From positions 6,942 to 70,941 of the forward strand of contig JBBSVX010000013.1 in NCBI GenBank assembly GCA_038046585.1: a stretch of DNA of 64,000 nt. The letters are read 5' to 3'. The notes beneath the pieces are model-generated. The model saw nothing but the letters and a program-made list of their open reading frames with translations. It did not search any database and was not told where the DNA came from. Source of the stretch: an archaeon (GTDB lineage Archaea > Iainarchaeota > Iainarchaeia > Iainarchaeales > JAAZKV01). Below, one piece after another: positions 2,742-59,073 of this stretch. Position numbers and translations under genes: made by a program. Numbering within the stretch: the first letter of the stretch is position 1; each line of letters starts with the position of its first letter.

Positions 2742-2747
2742 TCTAAA

Positions 2748-5840: not shown

Positions 5841-5845
5841 TTTTT

Positions 5846-8003: not shown

Positions 8004-8101
8004 CTTTTTTACATTTCAGCTTTCGCGCCTTAAGCGCATTCTACTAAATAAAGGGGTTCGGATGAACTCTTTTTAAAGGATTGCTTGGAATTCTTTTGTA
8101 G

Positions 8102-9211: not shown

Positions 9212-9218
9212 TTTTTAT

Positions 9219-9551: not shown

Positions 9552-9646
9552 ATCATCACGATTAATCTTGGATTGAAAAAGGTTAATAAATCGAATCTAA
9601 AAAGAAAGAAAGGGCCTATCGCGCCTGGGCGAAAGCCTTTCCGCAT

Positions 9647-9865: not shown

Positions 9866-10206
9866 ACTTATTACCTCCTTGCCTAATTTTATGGCAAAAA
9901 ATTATTTTTGCTTTATTGCAATAAAAATGCAAAAAAAAGCAATTCACTGCTTCTTGAGTCGTGTGGAAGTCAAAGGAGCTGCCTAGTCAAAATAAAGCTA
10001 ATTTAGAGCTTTACGTAAGAAAAGTCAAACGCTTTTGAATTGCCTTCTACAAATCTGCAAATTCTTGATGAAAACATATCATACACCTCTTTACTACCCC
10101 TTCATTTTTGGTCTTTAAAAAGAAAAGAGAGGGTAGCGCGCCGGTGATCGGAAATATTTTATTTTAAAAAAAGTTTTTGTTAAAAACTCTCATTTCGTTT
10201 TGAAAA

Positions 10207-11280: not shown

Positions 11281-11337
11281 ATGAAGAATTATGCGAAAGA
11301 ACTACTTAAGCTTTTTTGAGTATAATTAGAAAGAGGC

Positions 11338-14717: not shown

Positions 14718-14740
14718 GAAACACTATCCGAGAATGTTGT

Positions 14741-14809
14741 ATATATTCCTTTGGAAGAGACAGAATTGCTTTAATTTTACCTTCCAAAAGAGCACCAAAA
14801 GGAATATAT
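14741..14809. promoter_or_regulatory. Divergent promoter region built as an imperfect palindrome carrying two inverted GGAATATAT TATA-like elements
   Basis: ATATATTCCTTTGG (14741-14754) and CCAAAAGGAATATAT (14796-14809) each lie about 24 nt upstream of divergent start codons (14717 on the - strand, 14833 on the + strand). A nested TTCCTTTGGAAG/CTTCCAAAAG inverted repeat lies between them. Confidence 0.45.
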
Positions 14810-14832
14810 CTTCTAAGAAAAATTACTTATTC

Positions 14833-15648: not shown

Positions 15649-15692
15649 CCTATGCCACAAGATTATTATAGATTGATAGCCCTTACTCCTCC

Positions 15693-17567: not shown

Positions 17568-17650
17568 CTCGGTTAAATTGCAGTCCGCCTCTTTGCGCCG
17601 GCACGCCCCCCACCCCTCATTTTTAATACTTTCAAATCCAAATTTATTCT

Positions 17651-19777: not shown

Positions 19778-19850
19778 AAAAGCCCCAAATGCTTCAAAAC
19801 GCCCACAAAAAGCTTTATTAACTACTTAAGCCCATCTTGTTAATGGAATT

Positions 19851-22800
19851 TTGGCGGAAAATGAGCCAATTTTCATATTGCGCACATATAGTATATATAA
19901 TATAGAGAATTTTAGGGTTTTTTGGTCTTCTTTGGTGGACGTTGTGGGCTTTAACGAATTTGTTCAAAAAATCATCAATAAGGCTAAAAGCGTTTACTTC
20001 TTTTTCGAAGACAAATGGTATTCGGCGCTTGACCGAATCGACAAATACATTCCAATTTACAAAATAGTGGATCCAATCGACAAGGTCATTCCAAGCTTTG
20101 TGCTTTTCCTTCTCCTGCTACTTTTCTTACTTTTGTTGATGGGGTACCTCGCCAGGTTTTACGCGCCCTACGAAATCACTTTCCTTACTTACGATTCGAA
20201 GACAAGTAATTTCCTCCCGGGAGTAAAACTTAGCGGAGACATAGATGGCGATCCTTTTGATGGAGTAACCGACAAGAACGGACTTTCAAAAGTAACTGTA
20301 GAAGGGGAGGGGCGTAATTTTTTCGAGGCAGTGGCAAATATTTTCTTTCCTAGCAGCGAATATCCTCCGGCAAAAGTCTCTGCTGAAAAAATAGGGTATG
20401 TTTCAATCAAGGATAAAAACATAGAATTTGATTCTAAAGAATACAAGCTTCTTCTCCAACCAGCCCCTGAAGAAGATGTTCCCCAGTACAGTGATTTTGC
20501 GAATGTAAAACTAATTGATTCCACTACAAACGCAGCAATAGTTGATCAGAGCGGACAAGCTTATGTTAAGTTCAGCTGCAAAAACATTTCAAATTTCACT
20601 CCAAAAAGCGTGAGAGACAACGCTGATGGAAAAGTTGACGGAATTTTTAAGCTAACGGAAAACGCCTGCGATTTTGAAGTAACTAAAGCTTATTCCCCAG
20701 GATACGAAAGCCTAAGTATTACAACTTCGGTGAAAGGAGGAGACACAACAGAAATAGAAATGGATAAGGCCGAGACGGACGATACAGGGACTGCGAAGGT
20801 AAGGCTATACGAAAAAGGATCATCACCTGTAAAATATGTTGCAGGATCGAAAGTAGTATTTACAGGAGTAAATGAAACGCAAGAAGGAACAAGCGACTCG
20901 ACAGGATGGGTAAGAAAAGAAGGGATGAAAGTTGGAACATACACCATAACAGTAAAAGATTTGAATTATTATGAAATACTTCCCTCGGACAATGTAAAAA
21001 TAACAATCAAGGCAGGAGACACAAATGAAATAGAAATTGGGCTTACAAAAGTTAATCCGCAGGATATGAGAGTGGTTTACTTTAGAGTGATTGATTCAAA
21101 CAGCAGGACCGCTATTGCAAGCGCAACGGTTGATCTCATAACTCTTTACTACGATGCAAACAGAGGCTGCTACGCCGCCGACTCAAATAGAGACGGAGTG
21201 ATATATGAATCAAGCAACCCTACAATGACTGATTCAAACGGACTTTACAAAAAAGCAGCATTCACAATCAGAAGCGAAGGATATCTTGTAGCAGTAGTGC
21301 GAAAAGAAGGGTACATTTACAAGGTTTTTAAGCCAAAACTCTTTGATGTGAATTCGGGGCCCGAAACGGTAGAACTTAGTTTTGCAACAGAACAAAACAG
21401 CGGGAACGCAAAAATAATTGTTTCATCTGATTTGAATAGATATCTTGTCGGAGCGTCAACATATATTTACACTGATCTCAATTTGGGAACAGGAACATGT
21501 TCTAGCATCACAAACATAAAAGTCAACAAGGACGGAATATTAACTAACAGCGCGGGAGAAGCGCTTTACAAATATTTGCCAAGAGGAACTTACTCTGCTT
21601 CCGCTTGGTTTGATGACACGTTTTCAGGAATAACTCCAAAGCAGGATCTTGACATAAACCAGACAATTGTTTTTAATATCAGGATGAGCGTGAACGTTGC
21701 AAATCTTAGAGTAACTCTTAAGGATGCAATAACAGGAAGCATAATATCCTCCTCGAATGCAAGCGTAAAAGTATACACTGCCAGTGACGCAGAGTTCGAC
21801 ACACTTTACCTTTCAGAGACTCTAGCATATTCTAGCGGAAAGTTTGTAAGCAACGGCGGATATGCAAAGAAAAGCAGATTAGTGATTATGGCCGATTCGA
21901 ATGACTATGCGCCAAACAGCATTTATATTGACGGACCAATAACCCCTTTAGTTACAGGAAACAACGATTTCAATATGGCGCTTTACTCTGTCGCATCGCT
22001 TTATGATGTCAACATATTTTACATAAACGTCTTCACTACTAGTGACAATCTTTCAGGAACATCAAGCGTTGCAGGCCTAATGAGAGGAAACGATTATTAC
22101 GCGAAATTTGATGCAGTCATAGGAAAGAATCTCACATATCAAGAACTTCTTTCAATGATAAGAGTTGAAGGCCCTGTCGCGATAAAGAATGTCAAGCTTG
22201 TGAACATGTTGCCTTACAATTCAAAATCGCAATTGTACACTAAAAACACTTCGGCGATGGATTCACTGATAAGCCCTCACGATGACAACTACTACTTCCC
22301 GCCCACCTCGTCATACGTTGAGGCTGACAAGAGCTTAGTCCAGCTTGGAATTGATTGGACTTTGGTTAACGGAGTTTTGCCAAGAGGCACATACACTTTC
22401 GCGGTGAGATTCACAGTTGACTCAAATTCCTCCGACAACGACACGATGACGCTCAAATACAGAGCGAAGACAAAGCACTCTACTGGAACTGCTGAGACGC
22501 CTCTTGGATCCACAACTATCGCGCTCAACAAGGCAATCAAGACAGGCGTATTCTTCGTTGTCGAATACAAGGGAGTCAGCGAAATAATTGACAGCGGCGA
22601 CGCAAGCGACATTATGCTCCTTTCCTCAACCATAAGAAACGATATCAAAGTAACTCTCCAGAACAACACTTCCTCTGCGCTTTCTGGCGGAACATACAAC
22701 GTTTACTCTTATGACGGGCTGAAGAACACCTTCACTGAAAGCACAGGCGGAAGTGGATATGTTCACTTCAATTCAATTGATGGAAACAAAAAAAGTAATC

Positions 22801-24812
22801 TCTCAAACAGCCTCTCAATACCAACCGAACAAGGTTACACTACTACTCTAGCAGTTTACCCTGAAAAATTCAATTCAAGCAACTACATTGTTCTTTACGC
22901 TACATTTGGTTCTACTACTTACTCTACTTTCCTCGATGTTAAAGCATCAGGAAAACAACTCAACTTGCTTGCAGAATTTTTGGCTGGAGTGAACAACCAG
23001 AACTTCGATGGAGAAATATTCCCTAAAGATTCTGCCGATGTTGGAAGCCCTTTGGCACTTTCAGCAGTAACTCTTGCAACATACCGTTCATGCATAATAG
23101 ATTCCAATCACAGAGTATACAGCGAAACTCTTCCTTCTGCAAAAATGGCAGGGGACTTTTTCTCAACAATTGTAGACAACGTATATGAGTACAATGTTGA
23201 TTGCATAGTTGTCGACCTTGAAGCGGATGATGGAACATACAGCTATGAACCGCTCCACGAAGAAATAAAAGCTGGATCTGGCGGAACGTTTGACCCCACT
23301 CTTTCCTGCATCGACGTATCAACCCCCACGGGAGAAAAAATTATTTATCTTGAGTGGGATAAGAACCAAAAAATTGTTGTTACAAATAACTGCGCAAAAG
23401 ATGTTGTAGTAAAACTTGAAACAGGACTTGTTTGCACACCCGCTAGCGGAGTAACTTGCAGCGCGGATGCCACAATAAACGTTGGACAGGACAGAAATTA
23501 CACAATCACAGGAAAAAACATAGAATATGACCCCACAGCAGTAAAGCCAAACTTCACCGACATATTGGGATACTTCCCCGTGTTCGTTAAAGGAAGGTAC
23601 TATAGCGAAGGCAACAAGAAATTTGTTCTCGTTGATAAAGAAGAGGTTCACGTATCAAACTCGAACCAGTGCTTCGCAATATCAAAGGACATTTTTGATT
23701 TCACTGAATCAACTTCGCCGACAATTAACTTTGATGTTAACAGCTTTTGCCAGTACAATTTGATAGGCGACTTCTATGTCCCTCAGGCAAGCCTTTCCTC
23801 TTTTGGATATGACATCAACCTGGCCGTAGCAAAGCCTACCGCCAGCGTAACTTTCACCCCTTCACTAATGGTCACAGGAAACGGATACACCACTACAACT
23901 TATGATATAAATCTCTCAAGTTGGTGGGCTGCAATGATGATAGTGCCGAACAAAGCAACTTCGACTCTTGACACAACCAACCCGCTCTTGCCTTTCAGGA
24001 AATACTATAACATCAGCTTCAATGCGCTCGCATATGATCTGCCAGGGGATGCAAACAAATTACAGTTCACTTGGATAGATAAAAACAGCGAATACTTTAA
24101 CGAAAAGAAACCTTACGGGGCAGAGATAGATGGAAATGTCATTGTTACTTACACTAATGGGACAACTTACTCATTCATCCCTTCATATAATTTCTCAATA
24201 AAGAACGGCACAGTATCTTGCGTAAGCATTTCAACACCGCAATCAGGAGAGTACTGCGAACTTGGCGCTGATGTCGGCGAGAATAACCCTGACGGAGGAA
24301 AACTCGCATTCGGATTATTCTACATGAACATCCCAAGAGGAGACATAGCTAAAGTAGATTTCAACATTATAGGAGACTCAAACACTGAAAATCTCGAAAT
24401 AAAAATTAAGCCTTACACTAATTTCACTGAAACTAGAACATCCGTTACGCAGACAACAGGCGCATCAACTTACTCAATACCCCTAACGCCTTACTCCATT
24501 TATCCACTCGAAGATGTGGTGTACTTGCTTAAGCACATAAGCCAATTGAACACGTTCTCCGATTCGGCATTCTTAGGAGTAAATAATCCTACAACATACC
24601 TTGTAACGGACAATGCAAATGTTCTCGCTTGGGTTGAAGCGGGTTACCTCAAGGCAGCATATGTCGGAACTGATATCTCGCAGTATAACGACAAGTCTCT
24701 TGAATTCAAGCTTGTTAGAACATTCGGTCAAGGAATAGGGTACGGAATAGTGAACGTTGATGATTATGTTGCCACTGAATCTAGCAATGGCAAGGATATT
24801 AGCGGAGATTAA
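19851..24812 (+). CDS. Giant surface protein A (1653 aa): conserved cytoplasmic N-terminal 'KWY' motif, signal-anchor TM, then many carboxypeptidase-regulatory/transthyretin-like beta-sandwich repeats
   Basis: Paralogue of the 2216-aa ORF at 52423..59073. Their N-termini align (VYF..E.KWY..L.RI..Y.PI.K..D.ID.V.PSF.LFL) before a poly-Leu TM helix. Repeats of the type TDSNGLYK...GTYTI recur. The first 80 nt of the track ORF contain a TATATATAATATAG box and no in-frame ATG, so the true start is probably TTG/GTG at about 19932-19944. Confidence 0.8.
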   Translation: MAENEPIFILRTYSIYNIENFRVFWSSLVDVVGFNEFVQKIINKAKSVYFFFEDKWYSALDRIDKYIPIYKIVDPIDKVIPSFVLFLLLLLFLLLLMGYLARFYAPYEITFLTYDSKTSNFLPGVKLSGDIDGDPFDGVTDKNGLSKVTVEGEGRNFFEAVANIFFPSSEYPPAKVSAEKIGYVSIKDKNIEFDSKEYKLLLQPAPEEDVPQYSDFANVKLIDSTTNAAIVDQSGQAYVKFSCKNISNFTPKSVRDNADGKVDGIFKLTENACDFEVTKAYSPGYESLSITTSVKGGDTTEIEMDKAETDDTGTAKVRLYEKGSSPVKYVAGSKVVFTGVNETQEGTSDSTGWVRKEGMKVGTYTITVKDLNYYEILPSDNVKITIKAGDTNEIEIGLTKVNPQDMRVVYFRVIDSNSRTAIASATVDLITLYYDANRGCYAADSNRDGVIYESSNPTMTDSNGLYKKAAFTIRSEGYLVAVVRKEGYIYKVFKPKLFDVNSGPETVELSFATEQNSGNAKIIVSSDLNRYLVGASTYIYTDLNLGTGTCSSITNIKVNKDGILTNSAGEALYKYLPRGTYSASAWFDDTFSGITPKQDLDINQTIVFNIRMSVNVANLRVTLKDAITGSIISSSNASVKVYTASDAEFDTLYLSETLAYSSGKFVSNGGYAKKSRLVIMADSNDYAPNSIYIDGPITPLVTGNNDFNMALYSVASLYDVNIFYINVFTTSDNLSGTSSVAGLMRGNDYYAKFDAVIGKNLTYQELLSMIRVEGPVAIKNVKLVNMLPYNSKSQLYTKNTSAMDSLISPHDDNYYFPPTSSYVEADKSLVQLGIDWTLVNGVLPRGTYTFAVRFTVDSNSSDNDTMTLKYRAKTKHSTGTAETPLGSTTIALNKAIKTGVFFVVEYKGVSEIIDSGDASDIMLLSSTIRNDIKVTLQNNTSSALSGGTYNVYSYDGLKNTFTESTGGSGYVHFNSIDGNKKSNLSNSLSIPTEQGYTTTLAVYPEKFNSSNYIVLYATFGSTTYSTFLDVKASGKQLNLLAEFLAGVNNQNFDGEIFPKDSADVGSPLALSAVTLATYRSCIIDSNHRVYSETLPSAKMAGDFFSTIVDNVYEYNVDCIVVDLEADDGTYSYEPLHEEIKAGSGGTFDPTLSCIDVSTPTGEKIIYLEWDKNQKIVVTNNCAKDVVVKLETGLVCTPASGVTCSADATINVGQDRNYTITGKNIEYDPTAVKPNFTDILGYFPVFVKGRYYSEGNKKFVLVDKEEVHVSNSNQCFAISKDIFDFTESTSPTINFDVNSFCQYNLIGDFYVPQASLSSFGYDINLAVAKPTASVTFTPSLMVTGNGYTTTTYDINLSSWWAAMMIVPNKATSTLDTTNPLLPFRKYYNISFNALAYDLPGDANKLQFTWIDKNSEYFNEKKPYGAEIDGNVIVTYTNGTTYSFIPSYNFSIKNGTVSCVSISTPQSGEYCELGADVGENNPDGGKLAFGLFYMNIPRGDIAKVDFNIIGDSNTENLEIKIKPYTNFTETRTSVTQTTGASTYSIPLTPYSIYPLEDVVYLLKHISQLNTFSDSAFLGVNNPTTYLVTDNANVLAWVEAGYLKAAYVGTDISQYNDKSLEFKLVRTFGQGIGYGIVNVDDYVATESSNGKDISGD

Positions 24813-24857
24813 CAGATAGAAAAGAGATAAATAGTTGTAAGTTTTATTGGTGTTAAG

Positions 24858-26570
24858 ATGGATACAAGAAGGATTGTGGCGCTCTTCGCGTTGATACTTA
24901 TCGCGTTGCCGGCATTTGGATACTCTTTTGAGGACCTGCAGTGGAACGGATTAATGGAAATCAGCCTTGACAAGGAAGAATTCTTGGAAACTGAAGCGAT
25001 AACAGGAAATGTTGTGATAGATAATTTGGAACAATACCCCATAGTCGGGCAGAGGCTTGTGTTCCAGGTCGGCCAAGGAGCTTACACTTATCCATCCCAG
25101 TTCGCTTCGGATAACACCACCTCCGAACAAGCGATTAGCGATATCTGGGTTCTTCCTTCCTCAAACAAATCCATCCCTTTCTCAATCCCGGCTCAAAAAG
25201 CTGGAGAATACCACTTGGATGTTTACTCCTGGGTACTAAAATCAAAGTATGTCGGGGCAAGCGCGATAATGTACAACCCCCAGAGCGTAAACTTTAAAGT
25301 AAAAGGAAATAACGCAGAAGGCAAAGCGACAATAGTCAGATCCACAACAGTATTTGGAAATGGCGAGAAATGGATTGCTGGCCCGGTAGGATTCCCAATC
25401 AAAGCGGGAGAAAAATATGCAGGCAAAATATTTGTCAGAAATGATTCCACAAAAACAAAATCAGCAATGAAACTCTCAATTTCACTTTGCGATTGGGCGA
25501 TAGTATTTTGCGAAACCGCTGTGCAGAATGATTTTGAAGTCCCAACTCTAGCCCCCGGGCAGGAAACGCAAATAGATGTTGAACTCACAGCCCCAATGAT
25601 TCCTTCAGCTTATGAAATAAATATGATTCTAAAAGAAGGGGAAAGCATAGAGTCGATTTATAAAAACAGAATAATTGTTACAGGCGGAACCACAAAAGCA
25701 AGAAAAGTTTATGTTAACGGACTTGCAGATAGGAATTATCTGTTGAATGTATATATTGCAGGAAGCCCAGATCACTTCACAAATCCTGACTTCAATGATT
25801 TCACTTTAACCGTGGAAGTATATAACGAGGCCCAGCTTCTCGAAGAAAAATCAATAAATATTCAGGGAATCGGCCCTGAAGAAGTTTTAATGCACTCTTT
25901 TGATGTTACAGACCAGATGTTCACTAAAGCCTGCATCAAGGCAAAAAAAGGAGGCGAAGTGTTTGAAAGCGAATGCTTCACTGTTCCGCTAAAGGAACTC
26001 CAGGATGCTTATGATGCCGCTTTCCCAGAACTAGTGAAAGTAGAATGGAATTATGATGAAGCATTCTCTGCACTAAACGTCAACCTTACTAAGGAAACAA
26101 AACCTGTGAATGCGAGAGTGAGGATTTTTTCTTCAACAAAAACTTTGATTCTTGAAAACATAAGTCAGGCAAGCCCTTTTACAAAATCCTATACTATACA
26201 AAAAGGGGATCTCACAATGACTGTTGATGATCTTGACGCAAAGAAACAGCAGGTATTCAACCTTACCCTTAACTTGGGAGAAAAGACCCAGCTCGCCAGC
26301 GAAGTTGATCCTAACGCAGCTGAGGCAGGATACACCGGAAATTGTACAATGAATGTATGTTCCAACGCGCAAATTTGCGAAGGAATATCTTATAATTCAC
26401 CGCAAGGAGTGTGCTGCAGTGGAGCTTGCATTGAAGGAGTGAGCGGCACAGGATTAATTGAAGAAGAAATCCCATTCATATTCTTTATAGCACTAATAAT
26501 GATAATTCTTGCAGCAACAATTGGTGCGGGCGTTATGGTTAAAGCCAAAAAGAAGGGGGCGCTTAAATGA
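24858..26570 (+). CDS. Secreted protein with Sec signal peptide, C-terminal Cys-rich region and C-terminal TM anchor plus basic tail
   Basis: MDTRRIVALFALILIALPAFGYS signal peptide. The C-terminus reads ...CTMNVCSNAQICEG...CCSGACIEG...EEEIPFIFFIALIMIILAATIGAGVMVKAKKKGALK. It lies directly downstream of giant protein A. Confidence 0.7.
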   Translation: MDTRRIVALFALILIALPAFGYSFEDLQWNGLMEISLDKEEFLETEAITGNVVIDNLEQYPIVGQRLVFQVGQGAYTYPSQFASDNTTSEQAISDIWVLPSSNKSIPFSIPAQKAGEYHLDVYSWVLKSKYVGASAIMYNPQSVNFKVKGNNAEGKATIVRSTTVFGNGEKWIAGPVGFPIKAGEKYAGKIFVRNDSTKTKSAMKLSISLCDWAIVFCETAVQNDFEVPTLAPGQETQIDVELTAPMIPSAYEINMILKEGESIESIYKNRIIVTGGTTKARKVYVNGLADRNYLLNVYIAGSPDHFTNPDFNDFTLTVEVYNEAQLLEEKSINIQGIGPEEVLMHSFDVTDQMFTKACIKAKKGGEVFESECFTVPLKELQDAYDAAFPELVKVEWNYDEAFSALNVNLTKETKPVNARVRIFSSTKTLILENISQASPFTKSYTIQKGDLTMTVDDLDAKKQQVFNLTLNLGEKTQLASEVDPNAAEAGYTGNCTMNVCSNAQICEGISYNSPQGVCCSGACIEGVSGTGLIEEEIPFIFFIALIMIILAATIGAGVMVKAKKKGALK

Positions 26571-29023
26571 AAATGCATGCTCTCTTGATAATAGCAATAT
26601 TTTTAGCAGTGCTTTTGATAATTCCTACAGCAATGGCTGAGTGTGAGATAGCCCACTGCTGGTACATATCAGGAGAGATAAGCATTACCCCCACTAACAC
26701 TTGGAACGGATGCTACGCTTCAATGCCTTCCAACGTAAAAATTAACAACATATATTACCCTCTTTTGGTTTTACCCGGAAGCTACTTGTCTTCATCGGGA
26801 TTTGGAAACATTAACTTCCGATGCGATAATGGGGCAAGCGCAAGCTCGATGAACTTCGTACTGATGTACATCAATGGTGTCCGCTACACAACAAACGTTT
26901 CAGGTGGAGGGGCAGCGGTTGGTTCAGGTTATGAGTACTGTGGTAGTTCAGGGGGCTGCTATACACAAAGTGGGGTTGAGTCAGGATCAGGAAACCTCGA
27001 TCAAATGGTATCACAAACATTCTCGACAGCAGATATCGGCAAAGTATTCGATTATGCAATTAAATATATGAAGTACCCCATAGCGAACAGTTATGGAACA
27101 GAGGAAGCAAGCGACGGCTTTGGCACGGCCTATATTTCCCCTCCTCCATCACTTTTGGTTTTCGCCCAAGGGGACGAGAATTTCGGATTCTATGAAAAGA
27201 ACGGATACTACGAAAGAGAAGTGTTCTTCACTCTCGCAAACAAATTCCCGCTTGATGTGAACCTTGACGGGTACTCAATTAAATGTTCGCCTGGTGCGGA
27301 GTGCACAATAGACACAAGCAATATCGGATATACTATTAGCGGACAAAGCGGACTGATGATAATCCCCGGAAACATCAGAGTAAATAAAGGAAATTTGCCA
27401 GAATCGGTAACAATGTCACTCGACGTCAACTACAGCATCCCTCTTTTCAAAAACAAGGCCGCATGCGCCCCTTACGTAAAGAATTCGACAAGCTCAAAAC
27501 CAATGGTCTATGAGATTGGACTTCTTGACCAGCAGGACTTCCAAGTGGGACTTATTGCTGCGAAGGATCAGAACTTCTGCATAGGTGAAGACGGAATGAT
27601 AGGGCAGACAGGCCCAAGTTATGCGCCTAAAGTAAATATAGGGTTTGGCGGACCGACAAGCAATGTTGATCAGGAACTAATATCAGTGGATGAGTGCGAT
27701 TTGTACACCCCTTCATCTACCGGAACAAGAACTGATAATAATGACGCAGTATATTGTTCGCAAAGAGAGTTCCTGCTAGAACTTACAAGAAAAATTGCCG
27801 AAATCGCGCGCATAAGGGAACTAAAGGCAGCCGATAAAAATAGTACAGCACAAGAAGCCGTTTATGCTAATTTTGAAGCATACCTTAGAAAACAGGATTT
27901 TAGCACAACAAGCGTTACATCTTCCTCAAGCACTCTTGGAACTTACATCGGAGAATTCCAAAAAATAGGCCTTGAAAGCTACTTCGGGCAAACAAAAACT
28001 GAGCAGCTGGAAAAAGCTAAGAAAGTAATGGACAGCATAATATTTGAGAACACTGGAACTTTCCCCGCGGGCCTTTACACAGTAAGCATTGAGATAACCG
28101 AACTCTCTCCTCAAACAACCTCCACTTATCTCTTCAATGGAAATGCCCTGAACACCTTCTACCAGATAAAGATAAAACTCAACACAAAATCAACCCCCCA
28201 GTTCAACTGGATGTTTTACGAAATGGGAACTACAGAGCTTGATGAAAGCTCGATAGCAAGAGTACAAATAGGATCGGGAGACTATTATACTTCAAACAAC
28301 TCCAAAAGAGGGATTGTTCTTGAGATGGTTTATGACAAGAAACTCACTCACGCCGATTCAAACGCGCTCTACAATACTTTCGCAGTACCGATGATAATAA
28401 GGTCGGCAGATAAGAATGAAATTGTTGATAAGAACTTCGGGGTGGAAGTAAGAGCTGGAGTAAACCCAACTTCGCCTCCTCTTTTCACTTACTGGACCGC
28501 ATTTGCAAGCACTCTTGGAAGCGGGTGCGAAACAATAGAGAACACCGCCTTAACATCGCTCCCCTACAGAACCCCTGACACTGCGCTAGGCACATATGGA
28601 ACCGGTCTTTCGTTCAACATTGACTTCCTTAACTCGACAAAAAAGGACCAGAACATGTACTCTTCAACCGTGTTGTTCCTGCCAAAGGGCGTTGACAATA
28701 TAAACGAGGGCGTGAAAGTATACGCTCCTTTTAGGGTTATCACAAAAGACAAGACCTGTGATGGAAATTCAACTAATTTTTGCCAGACTGAAATCAATTC
28801 AGCGTCATCCACATACAATCTTTCAACATCAACTCCGCTTGCATCGGTATTCTCTAAAGTGTCTGATGGCAGTCTCTGTGTTTACCAGGGAATAAACGAT
28901 TCAGGAAAGAACCAGTGGACGGTGTTCTGGAACCAGGCACAAGTTCTAAGCGACCTTGATGCAAAGAAGAATGCAATTACTGATGCTAATATTTGCACTA
29001 CAAGAGCTATACTTGGATCTTAG
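26567..29023 (+). CDS. Large secreted hypothetical protein (818 aa)
   Basis: Signal peptide MKMHALLIIAIFLAVLLIIPTAMA. The start overlaps the previous stop (ATGA), indicating an operon with 19851 and 24858. Confidence 0.7.
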   Translation: MKMHALLIIAIFLAVLLIIPTAMAECEIAHCWYISGEISITPTNTWNGCYASMPSNVKINNIYYPLLVLPGSYLSSSGFGNINFRCDNGASASSMNFVLMYINGVRYTTNVSGGGAAVGSGYEYCGSSGGCYTQSGVESGSGNLDQMVSQTFSTADIGKVFDYAIKYMKYPIANSYGTEEASDGFGTAYISPPPSLLVFAQGDENFGFYEKNGYYEREVFFTLANKFPLDVNLDGYSIKCSPGAECTIDTSNIGYTISGQSGLMIIPGNIRVNKGNLPESVTMSLDVNYSIPLFKNKAACAPYVKNSTSSKPMVYEIGLLDQQDFQVGLIAAKDQNFCIGEDGMIGQTGPSYAPKVNIGFGGPTSNVDQELISVDECDLYTPSSTGTRTDNNDAVYCSQREFLLELTRKIAEIARIRELKAADKNSTAQEAVYANFEAYLRKQDFSTTSVTSSSSTLGTYIGEFQKIGLESYFGQTKTEQLEKAKKVMDSIIFENTGTFPAGLYTVSIEITELSPQTTSTYLFNGNALNTFYQIKIKLNTKSTPQFNWMFYEMGTTELDESSIARVQIGSGDYYTSNNSKRGIVLEMVYDKKLTHADSNALYNTFAVPMIIRSADKNEIVDKNFGVEVRAGVNPTSPPLFTYWTAFASTLGSGCETIENTALTSLPYRTPDTALGTYGTGLSFNIDFLNSTKKDQNMYSSTVLFLPKGVDNINEGVKVYAPFRVITKDKTCDGNSTNFCQTEINSASSTYNLSTSTPLASVFSKVSDGSLCVYQGINDSGKNQWTVFWNQAQVLSDLDAKKNAITDANICTTRAILGS

Positions 29024-52422: not shown

Positions 52423-55400
52423 TTAGTCGCAGCCGTATGAGCTGCCCGAGGTCACGTCATCTATCATTTCTAGCAGGTGCTCTTCATTCCACCATACTTT
52501 GAGCGATTTATCTGATGATTGGCTTATGCACATCGTTTCTTCTCTGACGCTGTCAAGCACGAATTGTAGTGTGTCGTAATCTTCAACCCTGGGGTAGTCG
52601 TCAGGATCAATTTTTTCTGCATCAAAATTGTTTAAAACTAGCGAAGTTGTGTGGGGCCTGTTTGGATTTCTTAACTTAGCATAGCTGTCGAGCGAATTGT
52701 TTTGTTCGTCAGCTATTCTTGCGGCGGCTATCATTGAGGAAGCTACTTTTGGGGCGAAGAAGGTGGTCGCAAGGTTTATTGTTCCCGCTTCTGTCCCGGT
52801 CCAGCTCATGGATTTTACCCCATTTTCCGTTTCGGATTCAATGAATCTTCTTATGCTTTCCCCCGAAAAGTCAATGCATTCTCTGCCACCCATTGTTGAA
52901 CCTAGCATATACCATTCTTTGTTTGGCGCTTGAACTATTGGCTGAGATTGCTGTGAAAGATTTATCAAAGAATAGCTTGCTTTAGCTTTGCCATCGGCGC
53001 TTTTCACATTCATTATCATCGGCGAAGGGTTTGACGGGTTGAATATCATTCTCTTCGAAGCAGTGTCATAAGTCAACACTATTCCTGATGCCAAGTCATC
53101 AAGGGCCTGCGAAGAATCATAATCTATTGTAGTTGTTGCGCCAGAATATGAATGTGCTTTTGTTGTAGAATTGAGTTTTAGTTCGCCTCCGCTTATTGAT
53201 GCCCCAAATCCGGTTCTTGCGAAATTAGTTCCATTCGTTCCTATCTCGCCGTCGAATGGAGTTTCATATAAAGGAGTATAATTAGGGGCTTTTCTTATCG
53301 GAGCAAGTGTCACAGTTATTGTCGCATTAGGAGCGTTGTTATCAAAGAGATTTAAGTAATCAGGATTATCAAGTTCTAATCCTATTTCGACTCTGTATAA
53401 TCCACCATAAGGAAGTTGTGTCTCGCTAGCCCCATCTTTTCTTAGCTGGAACTTGAGTCTGTTTGAAGTTATGAACTGGTCAAATCCTCTTATAGTGCCT
53501 ACAGTATTAAAGTACGAATCTGCGTTTGCGAGTTCCTGAGAGTAATATTCATCAAACGAAGTCAAGAAATCTTGCGAGTAATTGTCCGCAATAAGCATCG
53601 CGTTATATACGCTAAGTTCGGCAACTTCATTAGGCTTGTTTGCAATCAAGTAGCGCTGCATTAATGCGAGTTTCTTAAAGAGCGTGACAGTGAACTGTGC
53701 CGCGTCGCAATATACTGCTTGATCGTTTTGCGAGTCGCAAGCTTCGTCGTCTATTTGCTGCCAGTTCCAATTGAACAATACTTTGGGAACAAATTCTTCT
53801 CCTGTTGCTCCGGCAGTTCCATCGGCTGCGTAACAAAGTGACGGCTGACCAACGAGTTTCACTTGGAACACGCGTTCGCTCTTTACTAACACCCCATTCT
53901 CATCCATTATCCAATCGGCAACTGTTACGGCGGCGTATTCTTGGCCTAGCAAATTATTTTTTGAAACATTGAAATCGATTGTGTTCGAATCTATTTCGGG
54001 AAGGCCAATATATTCGGCGTACACGTGGCCGTTTTTTAGGAACATTCTCAAATATTGCTTTCCTTCGTTGTTTACTGGTATTGTGTCAGTTGGGATGTAG
54101 TACATTGCGTTCCCTGTTCCATCATATTCTACTAACGGGTCGGCTGCCGGTCTTATTACCCATTTCATCCAGCCACAGTTTGTTTCTGTGCTATTTCTGC
54201 AATTTTCAATGTCATCTATTGTCCAATTTACTTTGCTTTCGCATGTAGTATCGCCAACGACGCATCCTTGTGTATAATCAACTGCAGCGTGCTCAGGATT
54301 TACAAAACCGTTAGAATACATCGGACCCATAGTGTAATAACTGTAAGGGAATGCTTTCCCTTCTCCTGATGCGTATCCGTCGGAGCTCTCGTCGACTTCG
54401 GTCCATTGTGGAATAGGGGAGGCTTCGCCGTACGAACCTAAATCGTGAACTACTCCTTCTTCGGCGTTGATGCTAACATTCTTATCAAAGTATCCTCTTC
54501 TTTCATGAATTATTTCTCCGCCTCTCATGAGCTCGAACTGGATATAGAGATCTGCCGGCTCGTCGTCACATCCGAAGAGAGAGCAATCAGTGTCTCCGTC
54601 TGCAGAAGTTTTGAAGTAGTGGAGTCCGCCCCCAAGATAACCTGCTTCAACTAATTGACAATCTTCGCACCCGCTTGTCCCAAGAACTACATAGCACATA
54701 TCGCCTTTTTCGGTTATCCCAAGCCACAATGGAGAATTTCTATACCATCTTTGAGGAGAAGCTAAGTCATACCACTTTCCATCAGAGCCTTTCCAAACAG
54801 TCCCTATGTGGGTGCCGGATTTGCTCATTACATTTGGATCCAACGACAACCCTATACTGCCTGAAGCGGATATCCTTTCAGTATCCTCATTATTCCAAAG
54901 GAATACGGGCCAACCCAAATATTCTATGTATTGGTCCCAAGGGTAAAGCATATTTTTGCATGGAGCTCCAGAGTCACCGGCGGATGAAGTACTTGGGCAA
55001 GTATTTGCGTCATTATAAGTATAGGCTCCTGAAGTGGTCTCATAAGTCGAAGGAAGCTCTGCTGTTCCTGCAACAAATTCACCATACAGTCCAACAGAAG
55101 GAGTTATTGGCCACCCCCCAGAATCTACTTGCGTAGTAAGAGTAGTTGCTTGAAATGAAGCTTTTTTTGCTTTGGCATTTATATTTTCTTTTGAAGACAT
55201 TTCTCCCGAATCTGCGGAAGTATCGCTTGTTTCCCAATCTGAAGGAATTGGCAATCTATAAAGAGGCAAATCTGGATTTGTGATATTTAGATCCGGTTCT
55301 GGTTTTTCAATCGATTCACCATTATACTCAAAAGTGTTTGCGGTGTCTTCAAAATCCGAAAAACAATTCAGTTCCTCAGCTTTTGAACCTGGAACAGGCT

Positions 55401-58400
55401 GTGCTTCTGCATCTCCGCCATCGCCATCACTCTTGTGATGGAAAATTGATGACCCAATTGTGCTTTGCCAGAATCCTTCAAGAGCCGAACCGATTACTGT
55501 GACATTGAAATCAATCTTCTTCGGATTGCCCGGCTTTTTGTATTGAAGCGAAACGCTGCCGGTACTGATATCCATCTTTGGGTAAAAATTATCATATCTT
55601 CCTTCAAAGCACTTGTTGATTATTTTTCCGGGCAAGAGTGTGTTTGTTCTTAAATCATAAATTGCTTCTGTGAGTTCAAAGCAGGAAGATGGGTCTGATA
55701 TTACTATGTCAAACGAGGCTACTCTTTTTGCATTGTTTGAATCTGTAACTGATATTGGGTATGCTCCAAGCATTGGATAATTTTCAGGAGCTACAAGTCT
55801 GGCGTTTGCAAGTACTGAAATCTCGATTGATGAATCGGCGGGGATTGTTGCGGTCATCGGGGATACTATTGCGCCATCACTTTGAACCGAAATGTTTCTT
55901 GCTGAAGGACAACTGGATTCTATTGTGAATGTTTTTGTTGCATCGTTTTCAATGTTTAGGCGAGGATTAGCTTGAGTGGATATATCTACGCCGGCAATCT
56001 TGATTGAAAGGCACTCTGTTTCTGCCACCGGCAAAGAAGGGGCGAGTTTTGAAAGTTTTATTGTAAGGGTTCCGGGTAATGCGCCCTCATCATCCCATGT
56101 GGTGAAAAGGACATCTGTTCCTGCCGAATAATTCAAAAAGCTTAATGAAGTCAATTGTATTCCATTTTGATCAGTAGTGCCTTCGCTCACAAGTTCTTTT
56201 TCTCCGCCTGAAAGTATTGTTTCTGCTTTCCAGTGAGCCGTAACCCTATTATTGCCTGAAGTGTATTTTGTTTTTATGTACACAAAAGGGTTTTCTGAAT
56301 TTGCTTGCATGCTTTCAGGAGCGACAATTATTTGTAATTGATCTTTTTTGGCTATCCAAAGCCTGAAGGGAGCGCTGTTTCCCGCGTACCATTTTAACCT
56401 ATCTTGGCCGTCTTTCATTTGCTCTACTGATTCATACGCTTTTGCCGAGGAAGATGCAGTCTTTAGCATCAATGAAAACTCTTTTGGCAAGGCGTCCGAT
56501 AATGGGCCCAAGTTTATTTGCATAGAAGATGAATTTTTGTCTGTGTCAAAAGCCAATCTGTCATAAACTTCAGCCTTGACAAAAAGCAACAGATCCGATA
56601 ACCCTATTGCTTCATCAGTCGTGTTCGAAACAATAACCTTCACTTTATAATCGTCGCCAATCAAAACGCGGTAAGGTTCTTCTCCCATTGGAACGTATGC
56701 CCGCTGGTTCCACTTTATGTAATTGCTGAAAAGGAAAACTGGGCAGTCTCTGAGGCAAAACTCCTGCCCAATATTAAAGTCTTTTGAGTATAGCAAGCTG
56801 TTGTCGTCGCCAAAAAGCCCTTGCCAAGATATCTTCGCTGGGCCAATTGCGTTTGCGTCAACTTTTATTGAAACCACTATCGGGATTGATTTTGGTCCTT
56901 GGAGGGTAGCTATTGAAACGTTTGCTTGTTTTGCTAGCGAAGAAACTAGAGAATTTGAGTCAATTGAGATTCTCATCGAATCCATGTTTGAGGAAAGCAG
57001 ATTAATTGCACCCGATATTGATTGGACGGAATTAATTGAAATGTTGTCGTTGATGTCGAGTGTTTTTTTAAGCGCATTTCCAATATAAAAGTTTGAGAGC
57101 AGATCAAGTGACTCTTCCTTGTTTGCTACAAAAGTGAATAGCAAGAAGTATTCGTTGTTTGGCAAAAGAGTATCTGCAACTGCGGCTTGGGTTGATAGGG
57201 GGTTTGATTTGTACACTTGATTTAGGAATATCTGTGGAACTCGAGCGTTAGGAAGCTGGGTTGGTATTAGGTATATTTCTCTTTGCTGATTCCCTCTTTT
57301 TATCCTAAACACTGTTGTTTCATAGCTAAAGAAATTGGAATCATTTATGAGCAGCATTAATTCTGTGTTAACTTTCAGGGTCTTTGTAGTATACATTCCG
57401 CTTTTCGCCAGGGCTGATTCGGCTTTAATAAACTGGCCTCCGAATTCACGGGTGTAAAGTTCAAGCGCCGGACTCACCGAGTCCCCTTTTTGGGAGTAAA
57501 ATTTGAACTTGTAAGTTCCAGTCCCAAGTATTATCATGACGTTGATATCTAGTTTTGAATTTGACCCTAGGGAAGTATTTGCTTCGCCTTCGGAATCTTT
57601 AGAACTAGCCTTTATTGTATAACTTGATTCAGGCAGGGATTTGAATATTGCTTTTCCGTTCCTGTCCGAAACGTCATTTTCTATTTCAAAGGGGATTCCG
57701 GGGATGTAAAGCATCACTCTTGCTTCCGAAACTTTTTCATACGCATCATCTATAACGCTTATATCTATCTCTGATCCGCCCTGGTTCAGCTGTACTTCTT
57801 GTGGATTGGAATTTGAGTCTAAAAGGTTCACAAGTACTACCGCGGTTTTATAGCCCGGTTTTTTTATTAGCGCCCTTAGGGTTGTTGAAAAATCAATCGA
57901 TTTTTCTAGAATAGTTCTTTTCTGGATTTCGCCGGATCCGGAAGTTGAAAGATCGGGAGATATCGTGTTCGCATCTGAAAATAATTTTACTTTTGCCCCG
58001 GCAACTGGAGTGTTTCCGTCAAGGATTTTGACCCAAATATATTTGTTGTTACTATGGTCCACTGGTTTTGTTGCATCAACTTCGAACTCTACCCTAATGT
58101 CTTTGATTTCCTTTGCGAGTATTTCAAATGAACCTTTTTGCATTTCTCCGCTGATCTTGCTTATCGCCACAAAAGAATATTCCCCGGCATTTATCTTCTC
58201 CGTCGCCACTCCACTTTTGTCTGTGTAAAGCGTCAGTGATTTTTTTGTGAGCGCACTTGTAAGAACAATTTCAATTTCTGACTGGGCTTTGCTTTTGCTT
58301 TCTGCCGAAAATATTACTGTGCCTTCAGTGATTGTTTTTTCTAAAGCAATTGAAAGTCGCTGATCGGTTGGATTAAGAGTTATTGTTTTTTCATCATACC

Positions 58401-59073
58401 CTGAAGCGAAAGCTTTTGCTTGAAGATTTACACACCCTGATTTTATCACAACATCAAATCCTTTTTCAGGCTGATCTTTATAGTAGAATTTGTTTGAGTC
58501 TGTGAGGCAGGTTAATTCAAGAGAAGCTCCTTTCACTAGCGCTTTGTCAATATCTGTTACTTGAATAAACAATTTCTTTTCAGGAAGTGGCGCACTTGAA
58601 AGGAACACTTTTGCAGATAGTGTTTCGTCAAAAGAAATGTTTTTGTCTAGCGGGAGATAAAGTTTTTTTGTGATGCTGAGTAAAACTGTTTTTGAGCATG
58701 CTTCAAACACCGCAACCCCCGAAGAATCACTTGTCGCTTCTTGAATCACTTCTTCGCCCGAGCAAATCATTTTGGCTTCTACTTTTGCGCCAAAAAGCGC
58801 AAGACCGGAAGATGAGAAAACTGTTACTTGGGCGTCATATAGCTCCGACTGCGGGCCAAACATAGGGAGCAAAACAAAAGCTAGCAGGGAGAGCAAAAGT
58901 ATTGCTAGAAATATTAGAAAGAGTGCAAAACTTGGGACAACTGCATCTATCTTGTCAGTAACCTTAAGGATGGGGACATAATCGTTGATTCTCTCAAGAA
59001 CATCGTACCATTTTTGCTCGAGGCCGAAGTATACTTCTTTAATCGAATCAGAAATGTTAGACTTCAAGCCCAT
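52423..59073 (-). CDS. Giant surface protein B (2216 aa), paralogue of 19851..24812
   Basis: The same conserved N-terminal KWY motif plus poly-Leu signal-anchor, then many beta-sandwich repeats and N-glycosylation sequons. A GATTATTAATG TATA-like box lies about 30 nt upstream. Confidence 0.85.
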   Translation of the reverse strand: MGLKSNISDSIKEVYFGLEQKWYDVLERINDYVPILKVTDKIDAVVPSFALFLIFLAILLLSLLAFVLLPMFGPQSELYDAQVTVFSSSGLALFGAKVEAKMICSGEEVIQEATSDSSGVAVFEACSKTVLLSITKKLYLPLDKNISFDETLSAKVFLSSAPLPEKKLFIQVTDIDKALVKGASLELTCLTDSNKFYYKDQPEKGFDVVIKSGCVNLQAKAFASGYDEKTITLNPTDQRLSIALEKTITEGTVIFSAESKSKAQSEIEIVLTSALTKKSLTLYTDKSGVATEKINAGEYSFVAISKISGEMQKGSFEILAKEIKDIRVEFEVDATKPVDHSNNKYIWVKILDGNTPVAGAKVKLFSDANTISPDLSTSGSGEIQKRTILEKSIDFSTTLRALIKKPGYKTAVVLVNLLDSNSNPQEVQLNQGGSEIDISVIDDAYEKVSEARVMLYIPGIPFEIENDVSDRNGKAIFKSLPESSYTIKASSKDSEGEANTSLGSNSKLDINVMIILGTGTYKFKFYSQKGDSVSPALELYTREFGGQFIKAESALAKSGMYTTKTLKVNTELMLLINDSNFFSYETTVFRIKRGNQQREIYLIPTQLPNARVPQIFLNQVYKSNPLSTQAAVADTLLPNNEYFLLFTFVANKEESLDLLSNFYIGNALKKTLDINDNISINSVQSISGAINLLSSNMDSMRISIDSNSLVSSLAKQANVSIATLQGPKSIPIVVSIKVDANAIGPAKISWQGLFGDDNSLLYSKDFNIGQEFCLRDCPVFLFSNYIKWNQRAYVPMGEEPYRVLIGDDYKVKVIVSNTTDEAIGLSDLLLFVKAEVYDRLAFDTDKNSSSMQINLGPLSDALPKEFSLMLKTASSSAKAYESVEQMKDGQDRLKWYAGNSAPFRLWIAKKDQLQIIVAPESMQANSENPFVYIKTKYTSGNNRVTAHWKAETILSGGEKELVSEGTTDQNGIQLTSLSFLNYSAGTDVLFTTWDDEGALPGTLTIKLSKLAPSLPVAETECLSIKIAGVDISTQANPRLNIENDATKTFTIESSCPSARNISVQSDGAIVSPMTATIPADSSIEISVLANARLVAPENYPMLGAYPISVTDSNNAKRVASFDIVISDPSSCFELTEAIYDLRTNTLLPGKIINKCFEGRYDNFYPKMDISTGSVSLQYKKPGNPKKIDFNVTVIGSALEGFWQSTIGSSIFHHKSDGDGGDAEAQPVPGSKAEELNCFSDFEDTANTFEYNGESIEKPEPDLNITNPDLPLYRLPIPSDWETSDTSADSGEMSSKENINAKAKKASFQATTLTTQVDSGGWPITPSVGLYGEFVAGTAELPSTYETTSGAYTYNDANTCPSTSSAGDSGAPCKNMLYPWDQYIEYLGWPVFLWNNEDTERISASGSIGLSLDPNVMSKSGTHIGTVWKGSDGKWYDLASPQRWYRNSPLWLGITEKGDMCYVVLGTSGCEDCQLVEAGYLGGGLHYFKTSADGDTDCSLFGCDDEPADLYIQFELMRGGEIIHERRGYFDKNVSINAEEGVVHDLGSYGEASPIPQWTEVDESSDGYASGEGKAFPYSYYTMGPMYSNGFVNPEHAAVDYTQGCVVGDTTCESKVNWTIDDIENCRNSTETNCGWMKWVIRPAADPLVEYDGTGNAMYYIPTDTIPVNNEGKQYLRMFLKNGHVYAEYIGLPEIDSNTIDFNVSKNNLLGQEYAAVTVADWIMDENGVLVKSERVFQVKLVGQPSLCYAADGTAGATGEEFVPKVLFNWNWQQIDDEACDSQNDQAVYCDAAQFTVTLFKKLALMQRYLIANKPNEVAELSVYNAMLIADNYSQDFLTSFDEYYSQELANADSYFNTVGTIRGFDQFITSNRLKFQLRKDGASETQLPYGGLYRVEIGLELDNPDYLNLFDNNAPNATITVTLAPIRKAPNYTPLYETPFDGEIGTNGTNFARTGFGASISGGELKLNSTTKAHSYSGATTTIDYDSSQALDDLASGIVLTYDTASKRMIFNPSNPSPMIMNVKSADGKAKASYSLINLSQQSQPIVQAPNKEWYMLGSTMGGRECIDFSGESIRRFIESETENGVKSMSWTGTEAGTINLATTFFAPKVASSMIAAARIADEQNNSLDSYAKLRNPNRPHTTSLVLNNFDAEKIDPDDYPRVEDYDTLQFVLDSVREETMCISQSSDKSLKVWWNEEHLLEMIDDVTSGSSYGCD

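What the first reader, a model, noticed from the sequence alone, without database searches (positions are those of the whole stretch)
19851..20170. Two giant surface proteins share a conserved cytoplasmic N-terminal 'KWY' motif plus signal-anchor that I do not recognise as a known sorting signal
A (1653 aa) reads ..KSVYFFFEDKWYSALDRIDKYIPIYKIVDPIDKVIPSFVLFLLLLLFLLLL. B (2216 aa, 52423..59073, N-terminus encoded at about 58930-59073) reads ..KEVYFGLEQKWYDVLERINDYVPILKVTDKIDAVVPSFALFLIFLAILLLSLL. This is about 45 well-conserved residues in front of the first hydrophobic helix, while the huge ectodomains have diverged. Conservation of a cytoplasmic pre-TM segment argues for a functional targeting, anchoring or secretion-recognition signal, perhaps for a dedicated export or assembly machinery. 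It does not look like a generic signal peptide.
Basis: seen in the sequence. Interest (0 to 1): 0.75.

Follow-up and report, generated by a model that had tools for sequence, protein, structure and literature searches.

The report
Conserved N-terminal anchor of giant archaeal proteins
The shared 'KWY' segment is real: it is an undescribed, strongly conserved ~45-residue module plus membrane helix at the very start of hundreds of giant surface proteins of one group of tiny archaea (Iainarchaeota). It most likely acts as that family's membrane anchor, and a general export signal has not been shown.

Summary
A and B share 23 of 40 residues just before the first hydrophobic helix, against about 25% identity elsewhere. 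Fourteen of those identical residues use different codons, so the duplication is old.

The same ungapped motif, [LI]K..Y[YF]..E[DE][KR][YW]Y..LDK[ILV][DN]..[IV]P[IV]YK[IV][IV]DPIDK..PSF followed by a ~25-residue helix, heads giant genes in 53 loci of Iainarchaeota/Diapherotrites genomes. An exhaustive profile search found 616 protein clusters at E<=1e-10.

The motif always sits at the extreme N-terminus, with the invariant Glu at a median of residue 15. Complete carriers are 1,500-3,250 aa, often in tandem arrays. No Pfam, NCBIfam or PDB entry matches it.

AlphaFold2 (pLDDT 93) predicts a 30-residue amphipathic helix, a short helix, the membrane helix, then a beta-sandwich stalk.

All carriers belong to one homologous superfamily: anchor, beta-sandwich repeats, and a conserved ~520-aa C-terminal module. 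In A's operon that module is encoded as a separate secreted protein.

The best reading is a family-specific, uncleaved N-in signal anchor with a structured cytoplasmic part. A dedicated sorting machinery is neither shown nor excluded.

The parts
19944..24812 (+). Gene A: giant membrane-anchored protein, 1622 aa from the likely GTG start. The mechanical ORF begins at TTG 19851.
   Evidence: Orthologues L053, L054, L024, L040 and L047 (1600-1820 aa) start with M-x-x about 14 residues before the motif.
19892..19939 (+). Putative promoter and ribosome-binding region of A: TATA-like TATATATAATATAG at 19892-19905 and GGTGGA at 19934-19939, 4 nt before the GTG. This is inferred, not tested.
Evidence: Read from the sequence.
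19944..20099 (+). N-terminal cytoplasmic module of A. The conserved motif KSVYFFFEDKWYSALDRIDKYIPIYKIVDPIDKVIPSF lies at 19986-20099.
   Evidence: (HMM score 94.9, E 5e-29)
20100..20168 (+). Signal-anchor transmembrane helix of A (VLFLLLLLFLLLLMGYLARFYAP).
24858..26570 (+). 570-aa protein with a Sec signal peptide, a C-terminal TM and a KKKG tail. It is a conserved operon partner of A-type giants (cluster C2, 11 loci, often with overlapping stop and start codons).
26567..29023 (+). 818-aa secreted protein. Its residues 268-798 are homologous to the C-terminal module of B, so the module is encoded separately in the A operon (cluster C0).
   Evidence: (E 8e-10)
52423..59073 (-). Gene B: giant membrane-anchored protein, 2216 aa (NCBI locus tag AABW59_01295, annotated 'hypothetical protein').
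58927..59073 (-). N-terminal cytoplasmic module of B (MGLKSNISDSIKEVYFGLEQKWYDVLERINDYVPILKVTDKIDAVVPSF). AF2 places helix 1 at residues 3-32 and helix 2 at 36-43.
   Evidence: HMM score 89.7; pLDDT 92.9
58858..58926 (-). Signal-anchor transmembrane helix of B (ALFLIFLAILLLSLLAFVLLPMF; AF2 helix 48-72).
52426..54000 (-). Conserved C-terminal ~520-aa module of B (residues 1692-2216), with invariant Cys, Trp and Gly positions. The fold is not recognisable.

Best explanation
The 'KWY' segment is the N-terminal membrane-anchor module of a large, lineage-specific superfamily of giant surface proteins of Iainarchaeota (Diapherotrites, DPANN archaea).

The module has four parts, starting within about 10 residues of Met1:
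- a ~30-residue amphipathic helix carrying a conserved Tyr-Glu-Tyr-Asp face;
- a short helix (IYKIIDPIDK);
- a Pro-Ser-Phe boundary;
- a ~25-residue hydrophobic helix.

Inferred mechanism. The hydrophobic helix acts as an uncleaved type II signal anchor, inserted through the SRP/Sec route. SecF and SecD are encoded in the window. The structured pre-TM segment stays in the cytoplasm. There it would fix the N-in/C-out orientation of a helix whose flanking charges are weak. It would also act as a cleat holding a 1,500-3,200-residue stalk of beta-sandwich repeats and its distal ~520-aa module on the cell surface.

The near-invariant polar positions suggest an additional specific contact, either self-association or a conserved membrane or cytoplasmic partner. 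That partner has not been identified.

Shown: the motif, its position, its distribution, its restriction to giant homologous proteins and the predicted secondary structure.
Inferred: the topology, the lack of cleavage and the anchoring role.
For: Distribution. The motif occurs in 53 loci of GTDB species genomes, nearly all labelled Iainarchaeum or Diapherotrites, including the complete AR10 genome. The exhaustive profile search gave 1025 clusters at E<=1e-3 and 616 at E<=1e-10, and every one of the best 150 matches lies at the N-terminus.

Position. The invariant Glu sits at a median of residue 15, IQR 13-18.

Carriers. Complete carriers are 1,500-3,251 aa. The 79-aa L029_2 is a split gene and the 488-aa L013_10 is unresolved. 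There are 74 motif genes in the loci plus window, often as tandem arrays.

Conservation. Median identity is 55% over 42 ungapped residues, against 26% for the best ectodomain HSP. The logo shows about 10 positions at >=0.85 frequency, with the caveat that four of them were fixed by the selecting regex.

Structure. AF2 gives pLDDT 92.9 with helix 3-32, helix 36-43, TM helix 48-72, then a beta-sandwich. Helix 1 has a hydrophobic moment of 0.37, against 0.20 for shuffled sequences.

Topology. K+R counts are 1.62 in the 15 residues before the helix and 0.86 after it. The uncharged stretch has a median of 25 residues. 98 of 120 long proteins have a single TM. The C-terminal module has invariant cysteines and the stalk resembles CarboxypepD_reg, MG and CnaB domains.

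Family-specific rather than generic. All 126 long carriers form one similarity component. The C-terminal module is present fused or as a separate protein across the family.
Against: No experiment or proteomic datum shows the topology or that the segment is retained.

Conservation this strong, with near-invariant Tyr, Glu, Tyr, Asp, Pro, Asp and Pro-Ser-Phe, exceeds what simple anchoring or orientation would need. It hints at specific recognition that this model leaves unexplained.

The charge bias across the helix is modest, and both flanks are net negative.

The single similarity component could be driven partly by shared beta-sandwich repeats.

Degenerate variants of the motif exist on related giants, so the full motif is not strictly required.
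Confidence: 0.55

Rival explanations
1. Dedicated sorting or assembly signal. The cytoplasmic module is recognised by a specific, still unidentified machinery (a membrane complex, chaperone or targeting factor) that exports, positions or assembles these giant proteins. This would resemble signal-specific sorting systems such as YSIRK or accessory-Sec signals, or sortase-type systems.
For: Conservation is extreme and ungapped, and includes polar residues. The position at the N-terminus is fixed. The motif is used only on giant proteins.

Small multi-TM proteins of unknown function lie directly beside the giant genes in subsets of loci: C10/C18 (~160 aa, hydrophobic multi-TM, by eye) in 8 loci, and C14-C17 in up to 4 loci.
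Against: No neighbour is conserved across all loci and no ATPase is linked. None of these small membrane proteins lies next to A or B in the window.

All carriers are homologous, so there is no evidence of a transferable tag.

Operon partners of A are exported with ordinary Sec signal peptides.
Confidence: 0.2
2. Kinetic extension of a Sec signal, analogous to ESPR. The N-terminal helix would modulate SRP or translocon engagement, or slow release from the membrane. This would let very long ectodomains be translocated and folded in an orderly way, with no dedicated partner.
For: Like the ESPR of type V secreted proteins, it is a conserved extension N-terminal to the hydrophobic core, and it is found on very large surface proteins. 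The ESPR properties come from PMC8151025. Restriction to proteins above 1,300 aa is shown.
Against: There is no sequence match to PF13018. The hydrophobic segment has the length of a membrane anchor (median 25 residues), with no conserved small-x-small cleavage site after it. ESPR is dispensable in several autotransporters, whereas here conservation is very tight.
Confidence: 0.12
3. Cleaved leader of an atypical class III (prepilin-like) substrate. An A24 peptidase would cut at the cytoplasmic Pro-Ser-Phe boundary. The giant protein would then behave as a modular pilin-like subunit, assembled on or with a type IV pilus-like fibre.
For: An A24 prepilin-type peptidase gene lies directly downstream of the giant gene in 5 loci. 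A 500-570-aa protein whose N-terminus (KGFNLFSAL / KAFNLFTAL) looks like a class III leader to the eye precedes tandem giants in 7 loci; Pfam gave no hit on its representative. The conserved boundary sits where class III signals are cut.
Against: A and B do not match the Class_IIIsignal model, although another protein of the window does. The boundary lacks the [KR]-[GA] cleavage motif. The leader is acidic or neutral and 45 aa long. The linkage is seen only in related sub-lineages and could be inherited synteny.
Confidence: 0.06
4. Not a functional feature. The similarity would reflect a recent duplication or gene conversion, or untranslated sequence upstream of the true starts.
For: None found.
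Against: 14 of 23 identical residues use different codons. The motif is conserved in hundreds of clusters. The start codons are conserved upstream of it. Without this segment the proteins would have no signal or anchor at all.
Confidence: 0.01

Closest known systems
ESPR (extended signal peptide region, Pfam PF13018) of type V secreted proteins in Proteobacteria
   Same: A conserved extension N-terminal to the hydrophobic core, phylogenetically restricted, and found on very large surface proteins (PMC8151025).
   Different: There is no sequence similarity. ESPR is ~25 aa and is followed by a canonical cleavable signal peptide. Here ~45 structured residues precede a ~25-residue, apparently uncleaved anchor. 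The host is archaeal, not bacterial.
Type II (N-in) signal-anchor membrane proteins inserted by SRP/Sec
   Same: A single long N-terminal hydrophobic helix, more basic residues on the N-terminal flank, and the bulk of the protein outside the cell.
   Different: Generic signal anchors have no conserved sequence before the helix. Here the pre-TM part is the most conserved region of the protein.
Giant fibrillar adhesins with a conserved N-terminal retention module (e.g. LapA, MpIBP and SiiE-type RTX adhesins). This comparison rests on my own knowledge.
   Same: The overall layout: a conserved N-terminal anchor, a long stalk of Ig-like repeats, then a distal functional module.
   Different: Those adhesins are anchored in an outer-membrane pore after type I secretion. 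Here the anchor is a cytoplasmic-membrane helix in an archaeon. There is no sequence or fold relation.
Archaeal class III (type IV pilin-like) signal peptides
   Same: A conserved feature at the cytoplasmic edge of an N-terminal hydrophobic helix. Pilin-like and A24 peptidase genes lie near some family members.
   Different: No PF04021 match and no [KR]G cleavage motif. The leader is long and not basic.
YSIRK-G/S and KxYKxGKxW signal peptides of Gram-positive surface proteins. This comparison rests on my own knowledge.
   Same: A conserved motif in the N-terminal part of the signal of large surface proteins, which influences where or how they are secreted.
   Different: Those signals are cleaved Sec signal peptides in bacteria. 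There is no sequence relation.

Membership tests
ESPR (PF13018) | Sequence match to the ESPR profile | tested here: not met
   No PF13018 hit at E<=1 on the full proteins, or at E<=10 on 15 N-terminal fragments.
ESPR (PF13018) | Followed by a canonical n-h-c signal peptide with a signal peptidase I site | tested here: not met
   The uncharged stretch has a median of 25 residues, and the alignment shows no conserved small-x-small motif after it. No dedicated cleavage predictor was available.
Class III (prepilin-like) signal peptide | Match to PF04021, or a short basic leader ending in [KR]-[GA] directly before the hydrophobic stretch | tested here: not met
   No PF04021 hit on A or B, whereas window ORF 32881-34539 does hit it. 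The boundary consensus is K[VI][VIF]PSF.
Class III (prepilin-like) signal peptide | Cleavage by an A24 peptidase | not testable with these tools
   Only gene adjacency to an A24 peptidase in 5 loci is known.
Type II signal-anchor membrane protein | A single N-terminal hydrophobic helix of at least 20 residues | tested here: met
   AF2 places the helix at residues 48-72 with pLDDT above 90. 98 of 120 long family members have one TM.
Type II signal-anchor membrane protein | Positive-inside charge bias consistent with N-in | tested here: inconclusive
   K+R is 1.62 before the helix and 0.86 after it, but both flanks are net negative.
Type II signal-anchor membrane protein | The anchor is not cleaved in the mature protein | not testable with these tools
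   This needs N-terminal proteomics.
Fibrillar adhesin-like architecture | A stalk of repeated Ig-like or beta-sandwich domains | tested here: met
   CarboxypepD_reg and bMG3 hits. The first domain after the TM resembles CnaB2 and macroglobulin domains at prob ~0.9, although the E-values are weak.
Fibrillar adhesin-like architecture | A distal ligand-binding domain | tested here: inconclusive
PGF-CTERM / archaeosortase sorting signal | A C-terminal tripartite signal: motif, TM helix, basic tail | tested here: not met
   The Pro-Ser-Phe plus helix is N-terminal. The C-termini of A and B are not hydrophobic.

The most novel reading that the evidence does not exclude
The module is a bona fide archaeal protein-sorting signal. 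It would be a cytoplasmic N-terminal recognition domain read by a dedicated, still unknown membrane or cytosolic machinery. Candidates are the small multi-TM proteins or the A24 peptidase found beside some family members. That machinery would insert, process or assemble giant cell-surface fibres in Iainarchaeota. This would be a new sorting system specific to DPANN archaea.
Probability: 0.18. Interest if true: 0.85.

Novelty: new variant of a known kind. Interest (0 to 1): 0.55.

Why it matters
Iainarchaeota are uncultivated archaea with small genomes. Their members carry several of these giant genes; three lie in tandem in the 1.24-Mb AR10 genome, and at least three are present in this MAG. 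These proteins are therefore probably central to how the cells contact surfaces or partners.

A short, sharply defined sequence signature gives three practical things:
- a way to find and count these proteins in metagenomes;
- a correct start-codon call for them;
- a handle (peptide, antibody or reporter fusion) for asking how archaea insert and hold proteins of 2,000-3,000 residues in a single membrane.

If the module turns out to be read by a specific partner, it would add a new archaeal sorting signal to the few already known: Sec, Tat, class III and PGF-CTERM.

Tried and rejected
- A word-index protein search with the 75-aa N-terminus of B found nothing. The full-length search gave only three distant giants. 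Only the alignment-based searches opened up the family.
- Pfam, NCBIfam and PDB sequence searches with the N-terminal module gave only scattered single hits at E>0.01.
- Foldseek with the N-terminal model matched only the beta-sandwich part.
- N-glycosylation sequons are not enriched in the ectodomains, so they give no topology evidence.
- Literature searches on Iainarchaeota or Diapherotrites combined with surface or giant proteins found no description of this motif. A preprint assigns the Iainarchaeota S-layer to a different, 1039-aa protein, so I did not pursue an S-layer reading.
- Neighbourhood clustering found no universally linked gene. The Hel308-like helicase upstream of A-type genes is treated as inherited synteny.

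Full report
**Observation**

The two ORFs are as described: A is 19851..24812 (+) and B is 52423..59073 (-). BLASTP aligns their first ~55 residues closely. The following ~580 residues are only ~25% identical, and the remainder is barely alignable.

In the 40 residues from K..VYF to PSF[AV]L, 23 are identical. Of these, 14 use different codons. The similarity is therefore old and maintained at the protein level. A six-frame scan and an HMM scan find no further copy in the window.

A's start is probably GTG 19944 rather than TTG 19851. That start gives MGFNEF..., like B (MGLKSN...) and most relatives. GGTGGA lies 4 nt upstream of it and a TATA-like run lies at 19892-19905. The extra 31 residues of the longer ORF are not conserved in orthologues.

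**How wide it is**

The short N-terminus alone found nothing in the word-indexed database. Full-length B found three distant giants of 2397-2910 aa, and all of them begin with the same motif.

A five-sequence alignment then retrieved 13 N-terminal fragments. It also retrieved 53 loci in the GTDB species genomes. Nearly all are labelled Candidatus Iainarchaeum or Diapherotrites, and they include the complete genome GW2011_AR10.

An exhaustive HMMER search of 1.84 billion cluster representatives gave 1025 proteins at E<=1e-3 and 616 at E<=1e-10. In all of the best 150, the match lies at the N-terminus.

Source names for family members are only 'hypothetical protein' or 'carboxypeptidase regulatory-like domain-containing protein'. 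A third member is present in the same MAG as the window. The window shares a long syntenic block with Iainarchaeum loci, so it comes from this phylum.

**Anatomy of the module**

The alignment is essentially ungapped over ~45 residues. From 189 non-redundant sequences the consensus is:

[LI]K..Y[YF]..E[DE][KR][YW]Y..LDK[ILV][DN]..[IV]P[IV]YK[IV][IV]DPIDK[VI][VIF]PSF

About ten positions have a frequency of 0.85 or more. Part of that figure is by construction, because a regular expression was used to set the register. However, 221 of ~230 sequences fit it.

The invariant Glu sits at a median of residue 15 (IQR 13-18), and Gly is the commonest second residue. An uncharged stretch with a median of 25 residues follows.

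AlphaFold2 on B 1-125 with 67 sequences gives pLDDT 92.9. It predicts helix 3-32, helix 36-43, a transmembrane helix at 48-72, and then a beta-sandwich. Helix 1 is amphipathic, with a hydrophobic moment of 0.37 against 0.20 for shuffled sequences.

The module has no match in Pfam-A, NCBIfam or PDB sequences. Foldseek matches only the beta-sandwich, to CnaB2 and macroglobulin-type domains.

**Who carries it**

74 genes in the loci and window carry the motif. Where complete they are 1,300-2,978 aa, and up to 3,251 aa in the wider set. There are two exceptions. The 79-aa L029_2 is evidently the head of a split gene. The 488-aa L013_10 may be one as well.

Many loci hold two or three motif genes in tandem. 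AR10 has three in a row.

The ectodomains of all 126 long carriers fall into a single similarity component. Across pairs, the 42-residue module is 55% identical (median), against 26% for the best ectodomain segment.

A conserved ~520-aa C-terminal module with invariant Cys, Trp and Gly positions ends most members. A-type proteins (1,500-1,830 aa) lack it. They are instead followed, often with overlapping stop and start codons, by two genes. One encodes a ~565-aa protein with a Sec signal peptide and a C-terminal TM. The other encodes an ~820-aa secreted protein that contains the module. In the window these are 24858-26570 and 26567-29023. The A operon is thus a split version of the B architecture.

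Divergent relatives carry shortened or degenerate versions of the N-terminal motif, for example LKERWEDFMFWLEEHHIPKP followed by the TM.

**Topology**

Basic residues are about twice as frequent in the 15 residues before the helix as in the 15 after it (1.62 versus 0.86). 98 of 120 long members have only this one TM.

The helix has the length of an anchor, and no conserved small-x-small site follows it. The C-terminal module has invariant cysteines.

I infer an N-in, uncleaved type II signal anchor. This is not demonstrated. Sequon counts were uninformative.

**Mechanism**

The best-supported reading is a family-specific anchor module, with three steps.
- The helix is inserted by SRP/Sec. SecF and SecD are in the window.
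- The structured pre-TM part stays in the cytoplasm and fixes the orientation.
- That part also holds the very long stalk in the membrane.

The overall layout, anchor then repeat stalk then distal module, is that of fibrillar adhesins.

Conservation of the polar positions goes beyond what anchoring needs. It suggests self-association or a partner.

No universally linked gene was found. Subsets of loci have the following neighbours:
- ~160-aa multi-TM proteins just upstream of the giant gene (8 loci);
- a run of small 2-3-TM proteins downstream (up to 4 loci);
- a 500-570-aa protein with a class III-like (pilin-type) N-terminus upstream of tandem giants (7 loci);
- an A24 prepilin-type peptidase plus a radical SAM/SPASM gene downstream (5 loci).

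None of these adjoins A or B. These neighbours keep the sorting-signal and class III-like processing readings alive as minority possibilities. Against processing, A and B do not match the class III model, although another protein of the window does.

**Comparison with what is known**

Functionally, the nearest analogue is the ESPR extension of type V secretion signals. ESPR is conserved, N-terminal to the hydrophobic core, phylogenetically restricted and found on very large proteins (PMC8151025). However, the profile does not match, the hydrophobic segment here is an anchor and not a cleavable signal, and the host is an archaeon.

The module is not a class III signal and not a PGF-CTERM signal. 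A preprint assigns the Iainarchaeota S-layer to a different protein of 1039 aa. No paper in the searchable library describes this motif.

**Verdict**

Its interpretation is only partly supported. The segment is a conserved, functional N-terminal module that does not resemble any catalogued signal. The evidence favours a family-specific membrane anchor over a general targeting signal, and no dedicated machinery has been identified.

I rate it a new variant of a known kind (a signal anchor with a conserved cytoplasmic extension), of moderate interest. I give a real but minority chance (~0.18) that it marks a new archaeal sorting system.

Noticed in passing
window 19944-29023 (+): The A operon is a split form of the B-type architecture. 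The anchored stalk protein (A), a 570-aa protein with a signal peptide and C-terminal TM, and an 818-aa secreted protein carrying the family's C-terminal module are encoded as three adjacent genes. This order is conserved in about 10 other genomes.
   Followed up: partly
L004 (GW2011_AR10, CP010424.1) 1225-20137; also L011, L033, L002, L007, L049: Two to three giant motif-bearing genes stand head to tail. In several loci they are preceded by a 500-570-aa protein with a class III-like (pilin-type) N-terminus, and a ~156-aa multi-TM protein lies between the giants.
   Followed up: partly
L006, L008, L016, L030, L036 (downstream of the giant gene): An A24 (prepilin-type) peptidase gene and a radical SAM/SPASM gene directly follow one subfamily of giants (2219-2272 aa).
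   Followed up: partly
L002 17097-19250; L007 18147-19858; L038 7390-9014; L048 16044-16779: A run of four to five small (90-140 aa) proteins with 2-3 TM helices, of unknown function, lies downstream of tandem giants.
   Followed up: no
P0002, P0030, P0047, P0057, P0103 (residues ~1460-1550): Some family members have one or two extra hydrophobic helices in the middle of the protein. This would change the topology of their C-terminal half.
   Followed up: no
L021 2413-9843 and 18918-20120; L028; L015; L009 2157-7916: Related giants carry shortened or degenerate N-terminal motifs, for example MGLKERWEDFMFWLEEHHIPKP followed by the TM. These are natural variants that could show which parts of the module are essential.
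   Followed up: partly
window 30515-32830 (+): A Cdc6/Orc1 gene is interrupted by an intein with a LAGLIDADG domain.
   Followed up: no
window 32881-34539 (+): A 552-aa protein has a class III (pilin-type) signal peptide and a region weakly resembling the M26 peptidase N-terminal domain. It is a large modular pilin-like protein.
   Followed up: no
window 50371-52320 (-) and 59197-61944 (+): Two Cys-rich secreted proteins with MopE-type metal-binding motifs flank gene B. A B-like locus (L012) also has a Cys-rich secreted protein downstream.
   Followed up: no
window 43273-45983 (+): SecF and SecD genes are present, so the organism has the Sec accessory complex, which could assist translocation of long ectodomains.
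   Followed up: no
window 12045-14717 (-): An 890-aa ORF has no family match. Its 5' end overlaps the start of the nucleotidyltransferase ORF on the opposite strand (14590-15648). The start codons here were not checked.
   Followed up: no
same MAG, outside the window (NCBI AABW59_00575, P0157): A third motif-bearing giant of the ~2,900-aa type exists in this organism, partial at a contig end.
   Followed up: no
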